Positions 49,392-59,579 of a DNA stretch of 64,000 bases are shown piece by piece. The position numbers and the translations under genes are program-made. A model generated the notes under the pieces. That model ran no database searches and was not told the origin of the DNA. It was given only the letters and a program-made list of their open reading frames with translations. Source of the stretch: Candidatus Nanopelagicales bacterium (GTDB taxonomy: Bacteria > Actinomycetota > Actinomycetes > S36-B12); NCBI GenBank assembly GCA_044360385.1, contig JBIKKK010000001.1, positions 21,101 to 85,100 of the forward strand, given 5' to 3'. Position 1 is the first letter of the stretch. Each line of letters begins with the position of its first letter.

Positions 49392-50996
49392 ATGGCAACC
49401 GATGCCGCCGCCGGCACCACTCAAGCGCCGGCTCGGGCCGGGATCGTCCTCACCGCGCTGATCCTCGCCGCCATCGTGGCCAACCTCAACCTCAGCGTCG
49501 CCAACGTCGCGCTGCCGGACATCGGCAGGGCGCTCGAGGCCGGGCAGACCGAGATCAACCTCATCGCCATCGGATGCACGCTCGGCCTCGCGATGTCCGT
49601 GCTCTACCTCGGCGCCCTGGGCGATCGCTACGGCCGCAAGCTCATGCTCATGCTCGGCATGATGCTCACCCTGCCCGCCAGCGCTATTTCTGCCTGGGCG
49701 CCCAACGACATCATCCTCATCGGAGGGCGCATCTTCACAGGCGTCGCGGCTGGCCTGGCCTATCCGACGACGCTCGCACTGATCACGGCCCTGTGGGGCC
49801 CGACCCGGGCCAGGGTCAAGGCAATCGCCCTGTGGTCAGGCATCGGGAGCGGGGGCGCGGTGCTCGGTCCTGTCATCGCCGGAGCACTCCTGGAGTGGTT
49901 CTGGTGGGGGTCGGTCTTCCTCATCGCCGTCCCACCCGCGGTGATTGCCCTCGTGCTGGTGTGGAAGTTCGTGCCCGCCCACGTCAATGAGTCCACCGAT
50001 CCGGTCGACAACCTCGGCGGCATCCTCTCGGTCGTCATGATTGCCGCCCTCGTCCTCGGCCTGAGCACCGTCGCCGCTCCCGGGCAGTTCGCGTCCTCCC
50101 TCGCCCTGATGGGGCTCGCCCTCGTCGTGGGCGTGCTCTTCATCATCCGGCAGCGCCGAGCGCGCAATCCGCTCTACGACCTCAACTATGCGGCTCGTCG
50201 GCTCTTCTGGGTTGCTGCCATCAGCGGCATGATCGTCTTCGGATCGCTCATGGGCTCGCTCTTCATCGGGCAGCAGTTCCTCCAGGACGTCCTCGCGTAT
50301 TCGACACTTTCTGCAGGCCTTGCCGTCCTGCCGGCGGCGTTCATGATGATGGCCGTCTCACCCCTGTCCGCACGCATGATCAATGCCCTCGGGTCTCGTG
50401 ACACTCTCCTGATCGGCACCGGCCTGGTGGTCGTCGGTTTCGTCGTCATGCTGGTGGTTTGGGGAGAGGGCACGCCGTACTGGGAGGTGGGCATCGCCTA
50501 CGCGCTGGTCGGAGCGGGCGTCGGCATCGCACTTGCACCTGCCTCGAGGGCGTTGACCAGTTCCGTGCCAGTCGACCGCGTGGGCATGGCTTCGGCCACC
50601 TCGGACCTGCAGCGTGACCTGGGCGGTTCGATCATGCAGGCCCTCTTGGGGTCACTGCTCACCGCCGGCTACGCCACCGCCATGGCCAAGCAGATTGGTG
50701 AGAGTTCCGAGGCCTCGCAGATCACGTCCGAGACGCAGGCTTCCCTGCAGAAGTCCTTCACCACAGCACAGTCCCTGAGCGAGCAGTACCCGCAGTACGC
50801 GAGTCAGATCGTCGAGGCTGCGCGGCAGTCGTTCCTCACGGGAGCCAACTGGGCCTACGCCGCAGCGATTGCAGCGGGCCTCATTGCCATGGTGATCGTG
50901 CGCATGGCGTATCCCGGCAAGGCCGGGGAGACCGCCCTCCTCGCGGAGTACGCCAAGGAGGACTCCGCCGCGCCGGCGGCCAAGACGGGCGGCTAG
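49392..50996 (+). CDS. MFS transporter, DHA2 (EmrB/QacA, 14-TMS) type
   Basis: 534 aa, 14 predicted TM helices, with motif-A-like GALGDRYGRK and an N-terminal LNLSVANVALPDI typical of DHA2. Confidence 0.85.
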   Translation: MATDAAAGTTQAPARAGIVLTALILAAIVANLNLSVANVALPDIGRALEAGQTEINLIAIGCTLGLAMSVLYLGALGDRYGRKLMLMLGMMLTLPASAISAWAPNDIILIGGRIFTGVAAGLAYPTTLALITALWGPTRARVKAIALWSGIGSGGAVLGPVIAGALLEWFWWGSVFLIAVPPAVIALVLVWKFVPAHVNESTDPVDNLGGILSVVMIAALVLGLSTVAAPGQFASSLALMGLALVVGVLFIIRQRRARNPLYDLNYAARRLFWVAAISGMIVFGSLMGSLFIGQQFLQDVLAYSTLSAGLAVLPAAFMMMAVSPLSARMINALGSRDTLLIGTGLVVVGFVVMLVVWGEGTPYWEVGIAYALVGAGVGIALAPASRALTSSVPVDRVGMASATSDLQRDLGGSIMQALLGSLLTAGYATAMAKQIGESSEASQITSETQASLQKSFTTAQSLSEQYPQYASQIVEAARQSFLTGANWAYAAAIAAGLIAMVIVRMAYPGKAGETALLAEYAKEDSAAPAAKTGG

Positions 50997-52138
50997 TAGC
51001 TGAAGGGCCAGGCCTTGAAGTAGTTACGCAATCGCAGCCATAGTCCGTAGAGCCCACGTGGCTCGAGGATGAGGAAGAGGATGATCAGCAGGCCGAAGAT
51101 GATGGTCTGAAGCTCGAAGACATTGAGCAGGCCACCTTCGCCGATGCCACCGAATCCGGGGATGAAGCCGGTGAGGGTGTTGACCAGCTTGGGCAGCATG
51201 ACGACGAAGATCGCACCCATGATCGAGCCGGTGATGGTCGCGAGGCCGCCAATGAAGACGACGGCGAGGAAGTCAATAGAGAGGAAGATATTCCACGTCT
51301 CCGGCGAGATGCGGCCGATGACGATCGAGAGCAGTGCTCCGGAGATGCCCGCGTAGAAGGACGAGACGGTGAAGGCGAGCGACTTGGTGCGCAAGAGTGA
51401 TACACCCATCACCTCGGCGGCCACGTCGCGGTCGCGAACCGCAGCGAAGTTGCGGCCGTAGCGGGAGCGCACGAAGTTGCGTGCGCCGAAGGCCATGACG
51501 AGGAAGATCACCAGGCACGCGACGTAGAAGACGGTGAAGCGATCAATGCGATAGCCGAGGATCGTCTGGTTGGAGAAGAGGTCGAAGCCGAGGAAGACCG
51601 GCTCCGCTGGCGCACGACCCACGCCGGCTCCGCCGGTGATCGGCTTGGCCTCCTTGAAGATGTGCTCGCCGATGAAGACCAGGCCGAGGGTGAGGATCGC
51701 GAGGTAGAGACCACGCACTCTTGCCGCCAGGGGGGCGAGCACGAAGGCCACGAGTGCGGGCACGAGTCCGGCAAGGGGCAGCCAAATGACCATGTCGAGC
51801 CCAAGACCGATGACGTCACCTTGAGCCTCGCCGCCCAGGACAGCAGCGGTGTAGGCGCCCACGCCCATGAAGAACGCCTGGCCCAGGGAGACCTGCCCGG
51901 CGTACCCCGTGAGGACATTGAGACCGATGCCTCCGATAGCGAAGATGAGGACTGTCGTGAGCAGTGCGACCCAGTCGCGCGTGAGGAAGAACGGGATGAT
52001 CGCCATGGCGATGATCCCGACGATGACCCAATTGCGCTTGACGCGAGTGTTGAAGATCGCCATCTCGCGCGAGTAGCTGGTGAAGAGCTGCGGGCGTCCC
52101 TTGACCGTGCGAAGTGACTCCTTGGTCGCGGTGGTCAT
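50993..52138 (-). CDS. Branched-chain-amino-acid-type ABC permease (LivM-like)
   Basis: LivM-type TM pattern with GQVSLGQAFFMGVGAYT. The tracked ORF is trimmed to MTTATKE (ATG 52138), which overlaps the livH-like stop (ATGA). Confidence 0.85.
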   Translation of the reverse strand: MTTATKESLRTVKGRPQLFTSYSREMAIFNTRVKRNWVIVGIIAMAIIPFFLTRDWVALLTTVLIFAIGGIGLNVLTGYAGQVSLGQAFFMGVGAYTAAVLGGEAQGDVIGLGLDMVIWLPLAGLVPALVAFVLAPLAARVRGLYLAILTLGLVFIGEHIFKEAKPITGGAGVGRAPAEPVFLGFDLFSNQTILGYRIDRFTVFYVACLVIFLVMAFGARNFVRSRYGRNFAAVRDRDVAAEVMGVSLLRTKSLAFTVSSFYAGISGALLSIVIGRISPETWNIFLSIDFLAVVFIGGLATITGSIMGAIFVVMLPKLVNTLTGFIPGFGGIGEGGLLNVFELQTIIFGLLIILFLILEPRGLYGLWLRLRNYFKAWPFSY

Positions 52139-53031
52139 ACCCGCACCACCTCCTTCGTGCCGAAGAGACCGTAGGGCCTGACCATCAAGACGATGATCAT
52201 GATCAGGTAGGGCACGATGACGTCGAAGTTGGCGCCGAGCCACGGGGCGTAAATGGGCTGGTAGGTCCGGGTCAGCGACTCGGCGATGCCGATGATGAGA
52301 CCGGCGATGACGGAACCCTTGATGGAGTCCAGGCCGCCGAGGATGATCACGGGCAGGGCCTTGAGGGCCACCAGGGCGACCGTCGTTTCGATTCCCGAGC
52401 TGCCGGCCGTGAGCAGTGCACCCGCGAGGGCTGCCATGGCCGCGGCGATCCCCCAGGAGAGCCCGAACATTCGGCCGACATTGATGCCCTGGGCCAGGCT
52501 TGTCTCCTGGTCGAAGGCCGTGGCCCGCATGGCGAGGCCCGTCCGCGACCGCGTGAGGAAGAGACCCACGATCGCGATGGCGACGAGGGCGATGACCAGG
52601 CGCGCGATGTCCACGGTGAAGAGCCGCGCACCGAAGACGTCCACCGTGTTGAGGCCGAAGGGGTCGTTGACCGTGAGGAGCTCGGATCCGATGAGGCGAC
52701 CGCCAATGATGAGCAAGATGATGAAGACGCCGACCGTCACGGTCGCCGCCGAGAAGGCCGGTCTGCCGACCATGGGTCGCAGGGCGATGCGCTCGATCAC
52801 CATTCCGATGATGGCCATGACGGCCATGCCAAGGAGCACCGAGAGCCAGAAGGGAAGTCCGATGGCATTGCCGAAGGAACCCGTGAAGAATGCGCCGAGG
52901 ATCATGAGCGCGGGGGTCGCGAAGTTGATGACGCCCGTGGCCCGGTAGACGATCACGAAGGACACGCCCAGGACGGCGTAGAGCCCGCCCAGGCCCAGTC
53001 CCCGGACGAGGGATTCGATCAGGTCCGTCAT
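52135..53031 (-). CDS. Branched-chain-amino-acid-type ABC permease (LivH-like)
   Basis: 298 aa with GLGGLYAVLGVSFVIVYRATGVINFA and a C-terminal GLFGTKE. Confidence 0.9.
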   Translation of the reverse strand: MTDLIESLVRGLGLGGLYAVLGVSFVIVYRATGVINFATPALMILGAFFTGSFGNAIGLPFWLSVLLGMAVMAIIGMVIERIALRPMVGRPAFSAATVTVGVFIILLIIGGRLIGSELLTVNDPFGLNTVDVFGARLFTVDIARLVIALVAIAIVGLFLTRSRTGLAMRATAFDQETSLAQGINVGRMFGLSWGIAAAMAALAGALLTAGSSGIETTVALVALKALPVIILGGLDSIKGSVIAGLIIGIAESLTRTYQPIYAPWLGANFDVIVPYLIMIIVLMVRPYGLFGTKEVVRV

Positions 53032-53034
53032 GTC

Positions 53035-54960
53035 CTAGACCTCCGCTTTTTCGGACACGGTGGTGTCGACGACGATGACATCGCTCTGGTCGCCGCCCGG
53101 AAGTCGATCGGCGCCCGAGTACATGTCGTCGATGAGGGGTGCGAAGGTCGCCGTGAGCGCGGAGCGCTTGACCTTCTGGGTAGCGGTGAGCTCACCGTCC
53201 TCGTGGTCGAGGGCCTTGGTGAGCATGCGGAACTTGCGAATGTTCTCCACGCGCGCGGTCGCCTCATTGACCTTGGCGATGATCCCCTGCACGAGCCGAA
53301 GCACCTCTTCCTTCTCGGAGAGATCCCGGTAGGTGGTGTAGGGGATGCGCTTCGCGCGTGCCCACTGCCCGACGGTGTCCTCCTCGACACCGATAAGCGC
53401 GGTGAGGTAGGGCCGCTGATCACCGATGACGACGGCTTCGCGGATGAAAGGGGACGCCTTGAGGGCGTTCTCGAGCTCGGAGGGCGAGATGTTCTTGCCA
53501 CCGGCCGTGATGATGATGTCCTTGATGCGGTCGATGATCTTCAGGTGCGTGCCGTCGACCCACTCTCCGACATCGCCCGTGTGCAGCCATCCCTCGGCAT
53601 CGACGGTCTCGGCCGTGGCCTCGGGCCTGCCCCAGTAGCCCGCGAACGTGCCGGGGTGTCGAGTGAGGATCTCGCCCGTGCCCTCCGCCAGGATCACGTC
53701 GACGCCCGGGTGGGGCTCCCCGACGGTGCCGAGCTTGATGCGGCCAGCGCGGTTGCTGGTCGCCACCGCGCTGTTCTCCGTCATGCCGTAGAGCTCGTTG
53801 ATCACGACGCCCATGGTGAAGAAGAAGAAGAGGACATCGGGTGAGATGGGTGCCGCGGCCGACGCCGCGGCCCTCACTCGGCGCAGGCCGAGGCGCTCGC
53901 GCAGTGCGCGGTAGAGGAAGACATAGCCGACGGAGTAGCGCAGTCGGCTCCACAGCGTGTGCTTGCCGCCGTTGGCCAGCATCGACTTGGCGATCCCCTG
54001 CCCGACCTTCATCCAAATGCCGTAGTTGAGCTTCTTGATGCGAGAAGCCGCTGCCATGCGGACCTCGACCGCAGCCTTGAGCTTCTCCCAGATGCGCGGG
54101 ACGGCGAAGAAGAGCGTCGGCTGCACCTCGCGGATGTTGACGGTCACGGTGTCGATGGACTCCGCGAAGTGCACGACCGCACCGGAGACGGCGTTGGTCC
54201 ACGTCGTCACGGCTCGCTCGGCGACGTGGCACAGCGGGAGGTAGGACAGGATGACATCGCTGGGGTTGGGCGGCGGGTCGTATAGGCCGCCGCCGTCGAC
54301 GATCACGCCGCTGGCGAATTCGACGTTGGCGTTGGAGAGCATCGCCCCCTTGGGCGGTCCGGTCGTGCCGGACGTGTAGACGAGGGTCACGATGTCGCCG
54401 GGCTCTGCCTGGCCGGCGACGCGCTCGAGTGCACGGGGATCGGCCTCGCGGTGGGCATGGCCGCGTGCGAGGAATTCCTCCCAGCTCATGAGCTTGGGGT
54501 GATCGATCGTGGCGACGCCGCGGGGATCGAGGTAGACGATGCGCTCGAGCGTGGGGCACTCAGCCTCGATGAGAAGCGCCTTGTCCACCTGCTCCTGGTC
54601 CTCGGCGATGAGGATCCGGGCGCCCGAGTCGGCGAGCAGGTAGGCCACCTCGGGTGCGGGGTTGGTGGGGTAGAGGCCGACGGTGATCCCGCGTACGGCA
54701 TTGGTGCCCAGGTCGCCGAAGAGCCACTCGGGGCGGTTCTCGGAGTGGATGGCGACTCGGTCTCCCGGCTCGATGCCGAGTGAGAGAAGTGCGTGCCCGA
54801 CCAGGCTCACCTGGTCGGCGTACTCCGCCCAGGTGATGTCGCGCCAGATGCCGAGGCGCTTGGCGCGCATCGCGACGCCGTCGGGTGCCGACTGGGCTCG
54901 GGACTGCACTGCCCCCACCAGGGTCCAGGTGCCTGTGATGGGCTCGGCTACCGCGGTCAT
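53035..54960 (-). CDS. AMP-dependent acyl-CoA synthetase/ligase embedded in the ABC operon
   Basis: AMP-binding motif LVYTSGTTGPPKGAML, YGMTEN, HTGDVGE, and IKDIIITAGGKNISP. 641 aa. Confidence 0.85.
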   Translation of the reverse strand: MTAVAEPITGTWTLVGAVQSRAQSAPDGVAMRAKRLGIWRDITWAEYADQVSLVGHALLSLGIEPGDRVAIHSENRPEWLFGDLGTNAVRGITVGLYPTNPAPEVAYLLADSGARILIAEDQEQVDKALLIEAECPTLERIVYLDPRGVATIDHPKLMSWEEFLARGHAHREADPRALERVAGQAEPGDIVTLVYTSGTTGPPKGAMLSNANVEFASGVIVDGGGLYDPPPNPSDVILSYLPLCHVAERAVTTWTNAVSGAVVHFAESIDTVTVNIREVQPTLFFAVPRIWEKLKAAVEVRMAAASRIKKLNYGIWMKVGQGIAKSMLANGGKHTLWSRLRYSVGYVFLYRALRERLGLRRVRAAASAAAPISPDVLFFFFTMGVVINELYGMTENSAVATSNRAGRIKLGTVGEPHPGVDVILAEGTGEILTRHPGTFAGYWGRPEATAETVDAEGWLHTGDVGEWVDGTHLKIIDRIKDIIITAGGKNISPSELENALKASPFIREAVVIGDQRPYLTALIGVEEDTVGQWARAKRIPYTTYRDLSEKEEVLRLVQGIIAKVNEATARVENIRKFRMLTKALDHEDGELTATQKVKRSALTATFAPLIDDMYSGADRLPGGDQSDVIVVDTTVSEKAEV

Positions 54961-55750
54961 CGGGTCTCCGTTCCTGCTTCGCTGAGTTCCTCGCCGAGAT
55001 AGGCGCGGATGACGTTGGGGTCTGACTGCACCACCGCCGGTGTGCCGAGGGCGATGCGCTCTCCGAAGTCGAGGACGAGCACGCGGTCCGCGAGGTCCAT
55101 GACCAGTCCCATGTCGTGCTCGACCAGGATCATGGTCACGCCCATCTCAGCGCGGACGTCGAGGATGAAGCGGGCCATGTCCTCGGTCTCCTCGACGTTC
55201 ATGCCGGCCACCGGCTCGTCGAGAAGAAGGAGGGTCGGGTCCATGGCGAGAGCCCGTCCGAGCTCCACGCGCTTCTTGACGCCGTAGGGAAGCATCCCCA
55301 CGGGGAAGCTGCGCTTGCCCTCGATATCCAGGAAGTCGATGATGCGCTCGACTACTTCGCGATTGGCAACCTCTTGGCGCTTGGCCTTCCGGCTGAAGAG
55401 GAAAGCTGATGCGACGGAGTAGTTCATGTGCAGTGCCCGACCCAGCATGAGGTTGTCCAGCACGGTGAGGTTGTCGAAGAGCTCGATGTTCTGGAACATG
55501 CGCGCCACACCGAGTCGGGCGATGTCTTCGGGTGGCTTGCCGACGAGGTTCTCGTCGCGGAAGAGGATCGACCCCTGCTGCGGGTGGTAGACCCCGGAGA
55601 TGCAGTTGAAGATCGACGTCTTGCCGGCGCCGTTGGGGCCGATGATGGCGAAGAGCTCGCCCTTGCGTACGTCGAAGCTGACATCGCGGATGGCCTGGGT
55701 GCCGCCGAAGGACAGGGAGATGCCCTCGGCGCTCAGGAGGACGTCCGTGC

Positions 55751-55763
<13 letters not shown>
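54957..55763 (-). CDS. ABC ATP-binding protein (LivG-like)
   Basis: Walker A GPNGAGKTS, signature LPYGVKKRVEL, Walker B LLLLDEPVAGM, and a LivG-type insertion. Confidence 0.9.
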
Positions 55764-56536
<773 letters not shown>

Positions 56537-56550
56537 CGGGTGCCTCTCCT

Positions 56551-56589
56551 CCCTTGGCGGTCAAGCCCGACCCTTGGCGGTAGAGCCCG
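56551..56589. promoter_or_regulatory. Tandem 20-nt direct repeat in the divergent ABC control region
   Basis: CCCTTGGCGGTCAAGCCCG (56551-56569) and CCCTTGGCGGTAGAGCCCG (56571-56589), immediately upstream of the livF-like RBS. A TTGACA hexamer lies at 56698-56703, facing the binding-protein gene. Confidence 0.4.
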
Positions 56590-56785
56590 GCAGGGCGATC
56601 TAGCCGGCCCCCCGGGCCGCACCGCCCTGATGCCCCGCCATCTTGCCAAGGATTGGGCCCCCTGCGAGGCGAAGTTCCTAGCGGAGGTCCCTTTTCTTTG
56701 ACAGAGTGGGCGCGTAGGGCCATGGATCCCGCCAGGAGTGCTGGCCTGGGGACTGGCATCGAGCCGATGGCATGAGGAGGAAGTC

Positions 56786-58138
56786 GTGGTGTCCAAGCGC
56801 ATGGCGAAGGTCCTCGCGGGCGCAGGGGCGGCTGCCCTGGTGCTCGTGGGGTGTAGCAGTGGGGGCGGCGACGCGACCCCGACCCAGGCGGCATCGTCCG
56901 AGGGGGGCACCTCACCCCGCGAAGGCATCGTCTTCGACGTCGGTGTCACCGAAGAGCCGTGCCCCGAGGCCATCAATCCTGGCAACGGGTGCATCTACCT
57001 CGGCGTCCTCTCCGATCTGACCGAGGGTCCGTTCGCACCGCTCGCGACCCAGGTTGTCACCGGGCAGCAGGACTTCTGGACCTATGTGAACCAGCAGGGC
57101 GGCATCTCCGGCTTCGACGTCAACATGGCCGCCAATACGCGCGACAACAAGTACGACCCGGCGGTGCATAGCCAGGAGTACCGCGCGATCGAGCCCAATA
57201 TTCTTGCGCTCGCCCAGACCCTCGGCACGCCGCAGACCCAGGCGATCCTCGGCGATATGGAGGCCGACAACGTTATCGGTGTACCCGCCTCGTGGTGGTC
57301 GGGCTGGCAGTTCCCGGAGACTGACGGCGGCGTCATCTTGGAGTCGGGTTCGTCCTACTGCATCGCCGCCATGGGCGGCCTGGACTGGTGGGTGGAGAAC
57401 AAGACCCCCATCACCAAGCTCGTCGCAGTCGGCTATCCCGGTGACTACGGCGGCGACTACGCCGCGGGTGCTGAGAAGTGGGCTGCCGCCAACGGAGTCG
57501 AGTTCGCGGGCATCGTCGAGACAGCTCCCAACGCCACCGCGGGCAACCAGGACGCGGCAGTGTCGGCTGTCGTCGAGTCGGGCGCTGATGTCGTCGCGAT
57601 CGGCGTCGGCCCGGCAGAGGCCGCTGAGATCATCGGCAAGGCCGTAGCCGGCGGCTTCGAGGGGCAGTTCCTCGGTGCAGCGCCGACATGGAACCCGCTC
57701 CTCCTGCAGACTGCGGCTGCGCCCGCGCTGCTCGCGACCTACACCAATGTCGGCACCACGGGTTCCTTCGGCACTCCGTCGGCGGCGATGGACGCGATGC
57801 AGGCCCAGTTGGGTGAGGGCGTCCTGCCCTCCAATGACGGCTACACCTACGGGTGGGTGTGGCAGTACCCCCTCAAGGCAGCTCTCGAGAAGGCCGCAGC
57901 GAATGGTGACCTGACCCGTGAGGGCCTGGTCGCCGCGGTGCAGGGTGGCGTCGAGGTCGACTACGAGGGCGCTCTGCCCAACTCGCTCGTCGGCGGCCCG
58001 CCCGCGGACGTCGACCGCTCGGTGTCGATCAACATCCCGTCCGAGGAGGGTGCTCTCGGTATCGAGACCCTGCTCATGGGTTACGTCGGGCCGACCGCCC
58101 AGGCGTACGACTACAGCGCCCCCTGTTCTGGCGCCTGA
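56786..58138 (+). CDS. ABC substrate-binding lipoprotein (LivK/type-I PBP family)
   Basis: Lipobox LVLVGC|SSGG and a type-I periplasmic-binding-protein fold pattern. GTG 56786 lies 5 nt after GAGGAGG; ATG 56801 is an alternative start. Confidence 0.85.
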   Translation: MVSKRMAKVLAGAGAAALVLVGCSSGGGDATPTQAASSEGGTSPREGIVFDVGVTEEPCPEAINPGNGCIYLGVLSDLTEGPFAPLATQVVTGQQDFWTYVNQQGGISGFDVNMAANTRDNKYDPAVHSQEYRAIEPNILALAQTLGTPQTQAILGDMEADNVIGVPASWWSGWQFPETDGGVILESGSSYCIAAMGGLDWWVENKTPITKLVAVGYPGDYGGDYAAGAEKWAAANGVEFAGIVETAPNATAGNQDAAVSAVVESGADVVAIGVGPAEAAEIIGKAVAGGFEGQFLGAAPTWNPLLLQTAAAPALLATYTNVGTTGSFGTPSAAMDAMQAQLGEGVLPSNDGYTYGWVWQYPLKAALEKAAANGDLTREGLVAAVQGGVEVDYEGALPNSLVGGPPADVDRSVSINIPSEEGALGIETLLMGYVGPTAQAYDYSAPCSGA

Positions 58139-58148
58139 TCACACTTCG

Positions 58149-58192
58149 AACATTGAGGGGCTGGATCCGCAAGGATCCAGCCCCTCAATGTT
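58149..58192. terminator. Bidirectional terminator hairpin
   Basis: 20-bp perfect stem AACATTGAGGGGCTGGATCC / GGATCCAGCCCCTCAATGTT with a GCAA tetraloop, between the convergent stops at 58138 and 58203. Confidence 0.8.
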
Positions 58193-58202
58193 GTGAGGAC
58201 TA

Positions 58203-59192
58203 TCAGGTGAGTGAGGCGACGAGTGCGATGATGACGGCGCTGATCGCGAGGAAGATGATGATCCCGGTGAGGAATCCGAAGCGGATCTTCTTGTTGAGGG
58301 CCTCGCCAGCCTCACCCTCCATCTTGTGCTCGTGGAAGAGGTGGGAGCCGATGATCCCGGCCAGGAGCACCAGACCCAGGGCGATAAAGCCGACGATGAC
58401 GGACACGTCCCACACGGTGAGGTATCCGACGGAGCCCACGCCGCCTGCGGTGAAGACGTAGAAGACAGTCAGGCCGACGATTGCGGTCCCAGCAGTCCTG
58501 ACCTGGTAGTCGTTGCGCCCGAGGAAGAGCGTCGCCAGGCCGAGAAGGATGAAGGTCAGGAGCGGTATGTAGTACTTGGTGATGCTGGCCACGGCGCTGC
58601 GGCCGATCGGGACGTCGAACTCCACCTGAGAGTAGGTCTGGTCGAAGGCTGGGAAGTAGTGCTCGGATGAGGTGAAGGTGAAGGGCTCAAGGCTCCAGCC
58701 GGGCACGCCGATTTCCGAACTGACCTCGCTGCCGGGCACATTGGGCACGAGGATGAGCTGCTCCACGGTGAGGTTTTGGTGCTCGATGATGATGGGGAGA
58801 TTCTGTGTGTCGAAGGGGAAGAGCCTCACGTCAGGCTGGAGGACGAAGGTCCCGGATATCTGCCACCACGTCGCCCCCGCTTCCTCCAGGGTGACGTCGG
58901 ACGTGTAGCTGTTGGCGTTGACTAGTTCCCACTCGTCTGCGCGGCAGGGTTCGCTGCAAGCCACGCCGAGGTAGAAGTTGGCGTGGAAGGTGCCCTCTTG
59001 CAGGCTGACGTTCGACAAACTCGTGATCGCAATGGAGATCTGGGCCTCGGCGCCTGTGGGATCGGCGCCCGGCGCGGTCGTGGCCGCGGGGGCCGCATGG
59101 GCGGACTGGTTCACCGCGAAGATTCCCGCGGCGGCCGTGAGCGCGAGCGCCAGTGCGACCCAGATCAGCGGCAGGCGGGTCAGGTGAGGCAT
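58203..59192 (-). CDS. Pentameric ligand-gated ion channel (pLGIC, GLIC/ELIC-type) homologue
   Basis: Signal peptide; a beta-rich ectodomain with the loop-7 signature RLFPFDTQNL; YYIPLLTFILLGLATLFL (M1), then M2, M3, a short M3-M4 linker and M4 at the C-terminus. The start is taken at ATG 59192 (GGAGA upstream); ATG 59228 is also possible. Confidence 0.75.
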   Translation of the reverse strand: MPHLTRLPLIWVALALALTAAAGIFAVNQSAHAAPAATTAPGADPTGAEAQISIAITSLSNVSLQEGTFHANFYLGVACSEPCRADEWELVNANSYTSDVTLEEAGATWWQISGTFVLQPDVRLFPFDTQNLPIIIEHQNLTVEQLILVPNVPGSEVSSEIGVPGWSLEPFTFTSSEHYFPAFDQTYSQVEFDVPIGRSAVASITKYYIPLLTFILLGLATLFLGRNDYQVRTAGTAIVGLTVFYVFTAGGVGSVGYLTVWDVSVIVGFIALGLVLLAGIIGSHLFHEHKMEGEAGEALNKKIRFGFLTGIIIFLAISAVIIALVASLT

Positions 59193-59249
59193 CGGTCTCC
59201 ATGGCGTCGTATTCGAGGCCATCAGCATAGGGGGCCCTAGGCTCAGAGT

Positions 59250-59579
59250 GTGTCGACGAACCAGATCCCCACGCCCGAGGCGACGGAGCCTGCGCATGGG
59301 GGCATAAAGCGCCTTCGCCGCCAGGTGGGTGTCCTGCGAGCGCTGACCGTCGTGAGCCTGGTGCTCGTGCTTGTCCTTGCTGTCTGGTCCGTCGTGGGCA
59401 TCGTCTCGTTGTCATCACAGGTGTCGTCGCTCGAAGCGAAGATCGATTCCCTGTCGGCCCTAGCGAGCGAGGGGCGCACAGCCGCAGGCGGCTCAGCGGG
59501 TGATGCGACGACGCCGAGCGCTCAGGCCGCTCCCGCCCCGGACCTACGCAAGGCGAGCGCGGGGAGTACTCGTTCGTAG
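59250..59579 (+). CDS. Small single-pass membrane protein with coiled-coil segment (hypothetical)
   Basis: 109 aa with a GTG start. TM LTVVSLVLVLVLAVWSVVGIV, then the heptad-like QVSSLEAKIDSLSALAS and an Ala/Gly/Pro-rich tail. High GC3 supports coding. It lies divergent to the channel gene. Confidence 0.45.
   Translation: MSTNQIPTPEATEPAHGGIKRLRRQVGVLRALTVVSLVLVLVLAVWSVVGIVSLSSQVSSLEAKIDSLSALASEGRTAAGGSAGDATTPSAQAAPAPDLRKASAGSTRS

What the first reader, a model, noticed from the sequence alone, without database searches (positions are those of the whole stretch)
58203..59192. Complete pentameric ligand-gated ion channel (Cys-loop-family) homologue in a high-GC actinobacterium
The 329-aa product has every element of a GLIC/ELIC-type channel.
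- A cleavable signal peptide (MPHLTRLPLIWVALALALTAAAGIFAVNQSAHA).
- A beta-rich ectodomain whose strands line up by eye with GLIC as I remember it. ISIAITSLSNVSLQEGTFHANFYLGV resembles beta1-beta2. ISGTFVLQPDVRLFPFDTQNLPIIIEH carries the family-defining [FY]PFDxQ loop-7 ('Cys-loop') signature, without flanking cysteines as in other prokaryotic members. GWSLEPFTF resembles beta9.
- YYIPLLTFILLGLATLFL (pre-M1/M1 with the conserved Pro) and a small-residue and Thr-rich M2 (RTAGTAIVGLTVFYVFTAGG).
- M3, a 19-aa M3-M4 linker, and M4 ending the protein.
The ectodomain is compact, about 155 aa against roughly 190 in GLIC, and contains a CSEPC pair where the beta2-beta6 region is shortened. Prokaryotic pLGICs are sporadic and known mainly from cyanobacteria and proteobacteria. 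One sitting between an organic-acid ABC operon and a P450/SDR cluster has no assigned ligand or role. Codon usage looks less GC3-biased than the core genes by eye, which hints at horizontal acquisition.
Basis: partly seen in the sequence, partly recalled or inferred. Interest (0 to 1): 0.8.

Follow-up and report, generated by a model that had tools for sequence, protein, structure and literature searches.

The report
Compact actinobacterial pentameric ion-channel homologue
This gene encodes a real bacterial relative of the nicotinic/GABA receptor channel family, from an uncultured actinobacterium, with a shortened outer domain typical of a large group that standard annotation misses; its signal and role are unknown.

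Summary
The ORF exists at 58203..59192, on the minus strand, and encodes 329 aa. It is a genuine pentameric ligand-gated ion channel (pLGIC, Pro-loop receptor) homologue. A family profile hits GLIC and ELIC at E 1e-12 to 2e-14. An AlphaFold model (pLDDT 77.9) shows ten beta-strands plus four helices and matches GLIC at TM 0.72-0.78. FPFDxQ, the M1 proline and M2 are invariant or nearly so in 51 homologues.

Pfam and NCBIfam cut-offs are not reached, so relatives are labelled hypothetical.

The ectodomain is truly compact, with 30 residues between beta2 and beta6 against 56 in GLIC. The beta2-beta3 segment is lost, loop A is reduced to one Trp, and a CxxxC follows beta2. Nearly all closest relatives share this design, so it marks a subfamily.

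New observations: the protein changes about ten times faster than its neighbours (dN/dS 0.24-0.39 against 0.015-0.10). Its usual divergent partner, a membrane-anchored DsbA-like oxidoreductase, is cut to 79 homologous residues here.

Ligand, ion selectivity and pentamer formation are inferred, not shown.

Verdict: a new variant of a known kind, of moderate interest.

The parts
58203..59192 (-). Coding sequence of the pLGIC (Pro-loop receptor) homologue, 329 aa plus stop codon
   Evidence: ORF listing. PDB phmmer against GLIC E about 1e-7 and the family profile 2e-14. AF2 model pLDDT 77.9. Foldseek against GLIC TM 0.72-0.78, E about 1e-19. dN/dS 0.24-0.39 shows it is translated and under selection.
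59094..59192 (-). Residues 1-33: predicted signal peptide (MPHLTRL, a hydrophobic core, then AHA before the cut). Residues 34-47 (59052..59093) form a low-complexity Pro/Ala/Thr linker.
   Evidence: Read from the sequence. A33 is nearly invariant in 51 homologues. The AF2 model has a helix at 8-25 and pLDDT below 50 at 25-45. No dedicated signal-peptide predictor was available.
58599..59051 (-). Residues 48-198: compact beta-sandwich ectodomain (beta1 48-63, beta2 68-79, strands 88-90, 93-104 and 107-117, Pro-loop, then beta7-beta10)
   Evidence: AF2 secondary structure. hhalign against GLIC. Segment lengths against GLIC and 77 relatives.
58944..58958 (-). Residues 79-83: the CSEPC (CxxxC) motif directly after beta2, at the site where about 16 residues of GLIC's beta2-beta3 region are missing
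   Evidence: C79 and C83 are nearly invariant. CxxxC is present in most of the distant relatives listed. Deletion mapped.
58803..58820 (-). Residues 125-130: FPFDTQ, the Pro-loop (loop 7) signature
   Evidence: P126, F127, D128 and Q130 are invariant in 51 sequences. The motif aligns to GLIC YPFDSQ.
58521..58598 (-). Residues 199-224: pre-M1 and M1 helix with the conserved proline P210
   Evidence: AF2 helix 200-223. P210 is invariant and aligns to the GLIC M1 proline.
58446..58520 (-). Residues 225-249: M2, the predicted pore-lining helix. In GLIC numbering: D228 (-2'), R232 (2'), T236 (6'), V239 (9'), V243 (13'), V246 (16'), G250 (20').
   Evidence: Alignment to GLIC M2. Column composition across the family. 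AF2 helix 227-248.
58332..58415 (-). Residues 260-287: M3 helix. It is preceded by the M2-M3 loop GGVGSVGYLTVWD (G256 and D262 invariant).
58209..58316 (-). Residues 293-328: M4 helix with a short cytoplasmic extension. The protein ends one residue later.
   Evidence: aligned to GLIC M4
59250..59579 (+). Divergently transcribed 109-aa ORF. It is a truncated remnant (membrane anchor plus coiled segment) of a 281-297-aa DsbA/thioredoxin-like protein with a CPYC site. That protein is intact next to the channel gene in seven related loci.
   Evidence: tblastn matches only residues 1-79 of the L021 protein, at window 59304..59540. DNA homology to related loci stops at 59539. Pfam Thioredoxin_4 and DSBA on the intact L021 protein. 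The seventh intact copy is in L025.
56738..58138 (+). Context only: convergent neighbour, a Peripla_BP_6 solute-binding protein of the adjacent Liv-type ABC transporter and AMP-binding enzyme cluster
   Evidence: Pfam. Synteny is conserved in L001-L003, L008, L009, L021 and L025.

Best explanation
The gene encodes one subunit of a homopentameric, signal-gated ion channel of the pLGIC (Pro-loop receptor) superfamily. The channel would sit in the cytoplasmic membrane of an uncultured high-GC actinobacterium.

After signal-peptide cleavage, a flexible Pro/Ala/Thr linker and a compact beta-sandwich ectodomain face the cell-wall space. M1-M4 span the membrane and M2 lines the pore.

By analogy with GLIC and ELIC, an extracellular cue acts at or near the subunit interfaces of the ectodomain. 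The cue could be a small molecule, protons or a cation. The conformational change passes through the beta1-beta2 loop, the invariant FPFDTQ Pro-loop and the conserved M2-M3 loop (GGVGxVGYLTVWD). It opens a hydrophobic gate at V239 (9'), V243 (13') and V/L246 (16'), and ions then flow down their gradient.

The protein belongs to a distinct subfamily with a minimal ectodomain. The beta2-beta3 segment is deleted, loop A is reduced to one Trp, and a CxxxC, probably a disulfide staple, closes the shortened connection at the membrane-distal tip.

Shown here: homology, fold, motif conservation, purifying selection and subfamily membership. Inferred: pentamer formation, gating, the nature of the cue, ion selectivity and the disulfide.
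For: - Sequence homology: phmmer against PDB hits GLIC at E about 1e-7 over residues 114-316, and a GLIC-GABAA chimera at 3.9e-11. The 51-sequence profile hits GLIC and ELIC at 2e-14 to 1e-11. hhalign against GLIC gives 94.5% probability from beta1 to M2.
- Fold: the AF2 model (pLDDT 77.9, pTM 0.68) has ten strands followed by four helices. The Foldseek top hits are all pLGICs, with GLIC at TM 0.72-0.78.
- Conservation: the invariant residues fall on the coupling elements P126/F127/D128/Q130, P210, G240/T242/F244/Y245 and G256/D262.
- Constraint: dN/dS is below 1 in every comparison, and lowest in the Pro-loop and M1-M3 (0.04-0.28).
- Pore pattern: the M2 periodicity 228/232/236/239/243/246/250 matches the canonical -2', 2', 6', 9', 13', 16', 20' positions, with hydrophobic 9'/13'/16' and a hydroxyl at 6'.
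- Subfamily: the compact design with CxxxC recurs in most of the distant relatives aligned.
Against: - Pfam Neur_chan_LBD is below its gathering score and Neur_chan_memb gives no hit. NCBIfam LGIC_1 scores 31.6 bits against a cut-off of 500.
- Part of the canonical agonist site is missing. The Pro and acid of loop A are absent. Loop C is the least conserved ectodomain segment, at 39% identity between sub-clades. An autonomous orthosteric site is therefore not assured.
- The charge filter is atypical. It combines an acidic -2' residue (D/E in 50 of 51) with Arg at 2' (39 of 51), so selectivity cannot be called.
- dN/dS is several-fold higher than in neighbouring genes, which may mean weak constraint.
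- No pentamer model, ligand or current data exist.
- No conserved operon partner points to a cue.
Confidence: 0.75

Rival explanations
1. Partner-dependent gating. The minimal ectodomain no longer binds the cue itself. It is gated by docking of a ligand-loaded periplasmic-binding protein, either free (such as the adjacent Peripla_BP_6 protein) or fused as in some relatives.
For: Hydrogenedentota relatives are proteins of about 720 aa with an N-terminal Peripla_BP_6 domain (E 5e-48) fused to a compact pLGIC. In the window and seven syntenic loci a Peripla_BP_6 gene lies directly next to the channel gene. PBP-I fusions and PBP-linked operons of bacterial pLGICs are documented (PMC549065). Loop A is degenerate.
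Against: The two genes are convergent, so they are not co-transcribed. The SBP evidently serves the adjacent ABC transporter. The fused PBP domain and the window SBP show no direct similarity (blastp E 0.33). The SBP is extremely conserved (dN/dS 0.015-0.05) while the channel ectodomain drifts (0.2-0.4), which argues against a co-evolving interface. Other sub-clades have no PBP neighbour.
Confidence: 0.08
2. Redox- or metal-sensing channel. The conserved CxxxC at the tip of the ectodomain is a switch and not a fixed structural disulfide. It would be set by the neighbouring DsbA-like oxidoreductase or by metal binding, and would control gating or assembly.
For: CxxxC is nearly invariant in the family and common across the subfamily. 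A membrane-anchored DsbA-like protein with a CPYC site is the divergent neighbour in seven related loci.
Against: The DsbA-like gene is truncated in this very window while the channel gene stays intact and conserved. The pairing is absent in other sub-clades. Some subfamily members lack the cysteines (for example P0065, P0073, P0089 and the Hydrogenedentota fusions). A simple structural staple replacing the deleted segment explains the data more economically.
Confidence: 0.07
3. Weakly constrained or decaying surface protein. The gene is a fast-evolving accessory gene, perhaps targeted by phages or replaced by recombination. Channel function would be dispensable or lost.
For: dN/dS is 5-10 times that of neighbouring genes. 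The gene is 63-66% identical where the flanks are 94-96% identical. Synonymous sites are saturated between sub-clades that occupy the same slot. Many contigs break beside the gene. Gene content upstream differs between close relatives.
Against: All 14 full-length coding sequences examined are intact. dN/dS stays well below 1 overall. The Pro-loop, M1-M3 and the M2-M3 loop stay highly conserved, with invariant gating residues, across members down to 31% identity. That is the pattern of a working channel with a variable sensing surface.
Confidence: 0.07
4. Mis-called gene: the true start lies downstream, or the ORF is a non-coding artefact of high GC content.
For: High-GC DNA gives many long spurious ORFs, as seen on both strands.
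Against: The GC1/GC2/GC3 pattern is 0.60/0.46/0.85, as for real genes of the window. Fifty homologues align along the full length. The ectodomain has dN/dS of 0.2-0.4. The model is confident from residue 48 onward.
Confidence: 0.01

Closest known systems
GLIC (Gloeobacter violaceus proton-gated pLGIC; PDB 3EAM and many others)
   Same: It is the best sequence and structure match. The two share the domain order, a Pro-loop [FY]PFDxQ without cysteines, the M1 proline, an acidic -2' residue at the start of M2, F14', a short M3-M4 linker and M4 ending the protein. The segments from beta6 to the C-terminus have nearly identical lengths (22, 68, and about 125-131 residues).
   Different: Identity is only about 16% (Foldseek structural alignments). 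There are 30 residues between beta2 and beta6 instead of 56. GLIC's beta2-beta3 loop and strand are missing and loop A 'WIPE' is reduced to W88. A CxxxC is added after beta2. Position 2' is Arg where GLIC has Thr. The host is a monoderm actinobacterium. The activating cue is unknown.
ELIC (Dickeya/Erwinia amine- and GABA-gated pLGIC; PDB 2VL0, 2YN6)
   Same: The profile match is of similar strength (E about 1e-12). The overall architecture is the same.
   Different: The ectodomain deletion and CxxxC are the same differences as for GLIC. There is no evidence for amine gating. Two PLP-dependent decarboxylase genes lie within 4-7 kb in two relatives, but they are only about 25% identical to each other, so that link is weak.
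PBP-I-fused bacterial pLGICs (Tasneem, Iyer, Jakobsson and Aravind 2004, PMC549065) and multidomain DeCLIC
   Same: Relatives of this compact subfamily in Hydrogenedentota carry an N-terminal Peripla_BP_6 domain. The window gene lies beside a Peripla_BP_6 gene.
   Different: The window protein has no extra domain. Its N-terminal extension is only a disordered linker of about 14 residues.
Pfam Neur_chan_LBD / Neur_chan_memb and NCBIfam LGIC_1 (NF033918)
   Same: Weak sub-threshold matches fall on the correct regions.
   Different: Scores are far below the curated cut-offs for this protein and for the nine relatives tested that are not PBP fusions. The PBP-fused relative L017 is also sub-threshold, though only just for Neur_chan_memb (27.4 against 28.1 bits). 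A full-size bacterial pLGIC (L020, Vicingaceae MAG) passes both Pfam models in the same scan. The subfamily is therefore effectively unannotated.

Membership tests
pLGIC / Pro-loop receptor superfamily | Statistically significant sequence homology to established members across the ectodomain and pore domain | tested here: met
   phmmer against GLIC E about 1e-7 and a GLIC chimera 3.9e-11. The family profile hits GLIC and ELIC at 2e-14 to 1e-11. hhalign probability 94.5% from beta1 to M2.
pLGIC / Pro-loop receptor superfamily | Curated family-model thresholds (Pfam PF02931 and PF02932; NCBIfam NF033918 and TIGR00860) | tested here: not met
   PF02931 scores 16.5 bits against 26, and PF02932 gives no hit. 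NF033918 scores 31.6 against 500 and TIGR00860 scores 29.2 against 280. This reflects model coverage: a full-size bacterial member passes in the same library.
pLGIC / Pro-loop receptor superfamily | Extracellular beta-sandwich followed by a four-helix transmembrane bundle in one chain | tested here: met
   The AF2 model has strands at 48-197 and helices at 200-223, 227-248, 260-287 and 293-328. Foldseek gives TM 0.72-0.78 to GLIC over about 310 aligned columns. The sandwich is shortened by about 26 residues.
pLGIC / Pro-loop receptor superfamily | Loop 7 'Pro-loop' motif [FY]-P-x-D | tested here: met
   FPFDTQ at residues 125-130. P126, F127, D128 and Q130 are invariant in 51 sequences.
pLGIC / Pro-loop receptor superfamily | Conserved proline in M1 and a pore-lining M2 with a 6' hydroxyl and hydrophobic 9'/13'/16' residues | tested here: met
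   P210 is invariant. T236, V239, V243 and V/L246 are conserved.
pLGIC / Pro-loop receptor superfamily | Loop A W-x-P-[DE] motif of the canonical agonist site | tested here: not met
   Only W88 is kept. GLIC 'WIPE' aligns to 'W----E'. This feature is conserved in the superfamily but does not define it.
pLGIC / Pro-loop receptor superfamily | Assembly as a pentamer around a central pore | not testable with these tools
   Only single-chain prediction was available.
pLGIC / Pro-loop receptor superfamily | Ion conduction gated by an extracellular ligand, pH or ion | not testable with these tools
   This needs electrophysiology or flux assays.
Compact 'CxxxC' pLGIC subfamily (defined here) | About 30 residues between beta2 and beta6 (GLIC has 56), with C-x3-C directly after beta2 followed by [FW]-[ED]-[FILV]-[MVLI]-N | tested here: met
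   The query has 30 residues here, and 61 of 69 distant relatives fall in the 30-34-residue class. CxxxC is present in most of the relatives listed.
Eukaryotic Cys-loop receptors | Disulfide-bonded cysteines 13 residues apart flanking loop 7 | tested here: not met
   There is no cysteine in residues 105-140, as in other prokaryotic members (sequence).

The most novel reading that the evidence does not exclude
The compact CxxxC proteins form a widespread clade of minimal pLGICs that Pfam does not detect. Their ectodomain has given up part of the classical agonist pocket (loop A and beta3). They would sense something other than a classical agonist: the redox or metal state at the CxxxC tip (set by DsbA-like partners), or a docking binding protein (free here, fused in Hydrogenedentota). 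If so, this would be the smallest known ectodomain still able to gate a pentameric channel, working through a non-canonical gating input.
Probability: 0.12. Interest if true: 0.75.

Novelty: new variant of a known kind. Interest (0 to 1): 0.45.

Why it matters
Prokaryotic pLGICs (GLIC, ELIC, sTeLIC, DeCLIC) are the main structural models for human neurotransmitter receptors, yet their natural roles in bacteria remain unknown.

This gene extends the family into uncultured Actinomycetota. That phylum is absent from the two published inventories I could read (PMC549065, PMC4795631). The gene also exposes a large subfamily that falls below the Pfam and NCBIfam thresholds and is therefore annotated as hypothetical.

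Its ectodomain is about 26 residues shorter than GLIC's, yet it keeps every coupling element. That makes it a natural 'minimal' construct for asking which parts of the ectodomain are needed to gate the pore.

The practical value is in better family models and new targets for structural work. It is not a new principle.

Tried and rejected
- GC3 and codon bias as evidence of horizontal transfer: rejected. GC3 is 0.85, typical for the window.
- Alternative upstream start (364 aa): rejected on homologue gene calls, the overlap with the divergent gene and the RBS.
- PLP-dependent decarboxylase genes near two relatives as a hint to an amine ligand: they are only about 25% identical, sit in different arrangements, and none lies near the window gene. 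Not pursued.
- 'Rosetta stone' link between the adjacent SBP and the PBP fused to Hydrogenedentota relatives: both are Peripla_BP_6 but show no direct similarity (E 0.33). Kept only as a low-probability rival.
- Positive selection: overall dN/dS is below 1. Single-segment values above 1 (beta1-beta2 against L002, signal peptide against L001) rest on 32-47 codons and are not significant.
- Ancient-allele swap at the locus: 4-fold-site divergence is 0.556 against 0.421 in the flanks (p = 0.006) for L008, but this is not significant for L009 or L006. Suggestive only.
- Searches that gave nothing useful:
  - a profile search with distant relatives and a single-sequence search with P0113, both limited by the word index;
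  - cluster look-ups for names (none named);
  - the AlphaFold-database fold search (library unavailable);
  - literature searches for actinobacterial or compact pLGICs, which found no description. That means only that none was found in the held library.
- The promoter and terminator scan around the gene was uninformative.
Full report
**1. The observation**

The coordinates hold a real ORF, but it is on the minus strand. The plus-strand translation is full of stops, while 58203..59297(-) is open.

That start is supported in several ways. Gene calls for four homologues of 89-97% identity begin at the same Met. A GGAG lies four bases upstream. The longer 364-aa form would overlap the divergent neighbouring gene.

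The codon-position GC pattern is 0.60/0.46/0.85, as for the other real genes of this 67.6% GC window.

**2. What it is**

Curated family models do not recognise the protein.
- Pfam Neur_chan_LBD scores 16.5 bits against a cut-off of 26, and Neur_chan_memb gives no hit.
- NCBIfam LGIC_1 scores 31.6 bits against a cut-off of 500.

Comparison with solved structures is unambiguous.
- phmmer hits dozens of GLIC entries at E about 1e-7 over residues 114-316, and a GLIC-GABAA chimera at 3.9e-11.
- A profile of the protein with 50 homologues (alignment A1) hits GLIC and ELIC at 2e-14 to 1e-11, and also aligns beta1-beta2 weakly.
- hhalign against GLIC gives 94.5% probability from beta1 to M2.

The predicted fold agrees. 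An AlphaFold2 model built on A1 (pLDDT 77.9, pTM 0.68) has ten strands between residues 48 and 197 and four helices at 200-223, 227-248, 260-287 and 293-328. All top Foldseek matches in the PDB are pLGICs (E about 1e-19), with GLIC at TM 0.72-0.78.

The residues that never vary in the 51 sequences fall on the elements that couple ectodomain to pore in known channels:
- P126, F127, D128 and Q130 of the Pro-loop;
- the M1 proline P210;
- G240, T242, F244 and Y245 in M2;
- G256 and D262 in the M2-M3 loop.

**3. The compact ectodomain marks a subfamily**

hhalign places a gap of about 16 residues directly after beta2, covering GLIC's beta2-beta3 loop and strand. Two further small gaps reduce GLIC's loop A 'WIPE' to a single Trp, W88.

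I aligned the protein with GLIC and 77 relatives, most of them taken from an exhaustive profile search. That search gave 3209 representative clusters at E <= 1e-3, 1111 at <= 1e-10 and 83 at <= 1e-30. In the alignment every segment has the same length as in GLIC except the one between beta2 and beta6, which is 30 residues against 56.

Of the 69 distant relatives, 61 have 30-34 residues there.

None of the nine non-fused relatives tested reaches a Pfam cut-off. The PBP-fused relative L017 also stays below, though only just for Neur_chan_memb (27.4 against 28.1 bits). A full-size bacterial pLGIC from a Vicingaceae MAG passes both models in the same scan. The only source names found for family members are 'hypothetical protein'.

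I found no description of shortened prokaryotic pLGICs, and no actinobacterial members, in the two inventories I could read or in full-text searches. That means only that none was found in the held library.

**4. Who carries it**

All hits are metagenomic. In GTDB genomes the family (42-95% identity) occurs in MAGs labelled Actinomycetota, Actinomycetales, Micrococcales or 'uncultured Actinomyces', and in two Rhodothermales MAGs.

A more distant member, P0057, lies on a contig with WhiB and DUF3499 genes. From my own knowledge those are typical of Actinobacteria.

One MAG (mxb001) has two paralogues. The window has only one copy.

**5. Context**

In the window the channel gene is convergent with a Peripla_BP_6 solute-binding protein gene. 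That gene belongs to a Liv-type ABC transporter and AMP-binding enzyme cluster.

On the other side is a divergent 109-aa ORF. This ORF corresponds to the first 79 residues of a 281-297-aa membrane-anchored DsbA/thioredoxin-like protein with a CPYC site. The full protein is intact in seven related loci. Homology ends at window 59540, where the P450, MoCF-like, SDR and LysR segment begins. The oxidoreductase gene is thus truncated in this strain, unless the junction is an assembly artefact.

Other sub-clades have different neighbours.
- One has a secreted 183-aa protein with no Pfam hit upstream on the same strand. In most of those loci a gene of 57-60 aa lies just downstream.
- Another has FUSC_2, MIP and phosphoesterase genes.

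Three distant members show nothing recurrent. No partner is universal, so context does not reveal the cue.

**6. Evolutionary behaviour (new)**

In syntenic loci the flanking proteins are 94-96% identical to the window's, while the channel is 63-66% identical.

Nei-Gojobori estimates give dN/dS of 0.24-0.39 for the channel against 0.015-0.10 for six neighbouring genes. The constraint is uneven.
- The Pro-loop and M1-M3 are lowest (0.04-0.28).
- The signal peptide and linker, loop C and M4 are highest (up to about 0.6-1).

Synonymous differences between sub-clades are saturated. pS is 0.48-0.61, which overlaps the values against members only 41-47% identical (0.53-0.65). At 4-fold sites the channel differs more than the flanks in L008 (0.556 against 0.421, Fisher p = 0.006). 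The same comparison is not significant for L009 or L006.

Among close strains the pattern reverses (SBP 0.20, channel 0.05), which indicates mosaic recombination. Gene content beyond the DsbA-like gene differs between close relatives, and several contigs end beside the channel gene.

The gene thus sits at the edge of a variable region and behaves as an accessory gene with a conserved pore and a drifting sensing surface. It is functional and is not decaying.

**7. Mechanism**

The best-supported reading is a homopentameric gated channel of the GLIC/ELIC type. The cue acts on the ectodomain. The beta1-beta2 loop, the Pro-loop and the M2-M3 loop transmit the change. A hydrophobic gate at 9'/13'/16' (V239, V243, V/L246) opens.

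The pore-facing pattern is D228 (-2'; D or E in 50 of 51 sequences), R232 (2'; Arg in 39 of 51), T236 (6'), V239, V243, V/L246 and G250.
- An acidic -2' residue, as in GLIC, suggests cation permeation.
- An Arg one turn above it is unusual. It may pair with D228 or change the selectivity, so I do not call it.

The CxxxC most simply acts as a disulfide staple for the shortened connection. This is an inference; I could not read coordinates from the model.

Pentamer formation, gating and the ligand are inferred from family membership. None was tested.

**8. Rivals**

I kept three rivals at low probability: gating through a binding protein, redox or metal sensing through the CxxxC, and a weakly constrained surface protein. 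Their evidence is listed in the rival section. A mis-called gene is excluded.

**9. Verdict**

It is not a new kind of system. It is a structurally distinct, unannotated variant of a well-known channel family in a phylum not listed in the two published inventories I could read. Its cue and role are unknown and the organisms are uncultured, so the open question about bacterial pLGIC physiology does not become directly testable. Interest is moderate.

Noticed in passing
window 59250..59579 (+), junction at about 59540: The ORF divergent from the channel gene is the N-terminal 79 residues of a 281-297-aa membrane-anchored DsbA-like oxidoreductase (CPYC site). That protein is intact in seven related loci. 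Homology stops at 59540, where a P450, MoCF-like, SDR and LysR segment begins that none of the related loci has. This is either a real rearrangement that truncates the gene or an assembly chimera.
   Followed up: partly
window 50993..59579 compared with L003, L002, L001 and L008: Synonymous divergence along the syntenic block is mosaic. Against L003 the 4-fold-site difference is 0.05 in the AMP-binding gene, 0.14 in one ATPase gene, 0.20 in the SBP gene and 0.05 in the channel gene. Against L008 the channel gene is the most diverged gene. This suggests frequent homologous recombination among related strains.
   Followed up: partly
L017:6528-8687, L018:6516-8690, L019:6531-8687 (Candidatus Hydrogenedentota MAGs): These are fusion proteins of about 720 aa with an N-terminal Peripla_BP_6/ANF_receptor domain (E 5e-48) followed by a compact pLGIC without the CxxxC.
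   Followed up: partly
L032:1873-9386 (contig carrying P0113): A distant compact-subfamily member lies 15 bp downstream of a GH108 muramidase gene with a peptidoglycan-binding domain. It is next to a gene for a TcA-like ABC-toxin subunit of more than 3300 aa. This is the position where Tc-toxin loci often carry lysis or release cassettes.
   Followed up: no
P0138 (704 aa, from the representative search): An N-terminal AAA_35 ATPase-like domain (E 1e-33) is joined to a C-terminal compact pLGIC-like region at residues 410-670. This is either an odd fusion or a gene-calling artefact.
   Followed up: no
L029:337-888, L026:6393-6944, and also L005, L015, L027 and L030: In one sub-clade a secreted, beta-rich 183-aa protein with no Pfam match lies 53-56 bp upstream of the channel gene on the same strand, probably in an operon. 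A gene for a 57-60-aa acidic, Gly-rich protein recurs near the channel gene in ten loci.
   Followed up: partly
L006 and L007 (MAG Actinomycetales bacterium mxb001): The same MAG carries two paralogues of the channel from different sub-clades, about 67% identical to each other.
   Followed up: no
L025:1927-3366 and L022:17936-19345: PLP-dependent decarboxylase genes (Pyridoxal_deC) lie 4-7 kb from the channel gene in two different contexts. They are only about 25% identical to each other. This is possibly a coincidence, but amines are classical pLGIC agonists.
   Followed up: partly
L013 and L014 (MAGs labelled Rubrivirga / Rubricoccaceae): Family members 42-45% identical to the window protein occur in two Rhodothermales MAGs. 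This could be transfer between phyla or contamination during binning.
   Followed up: no
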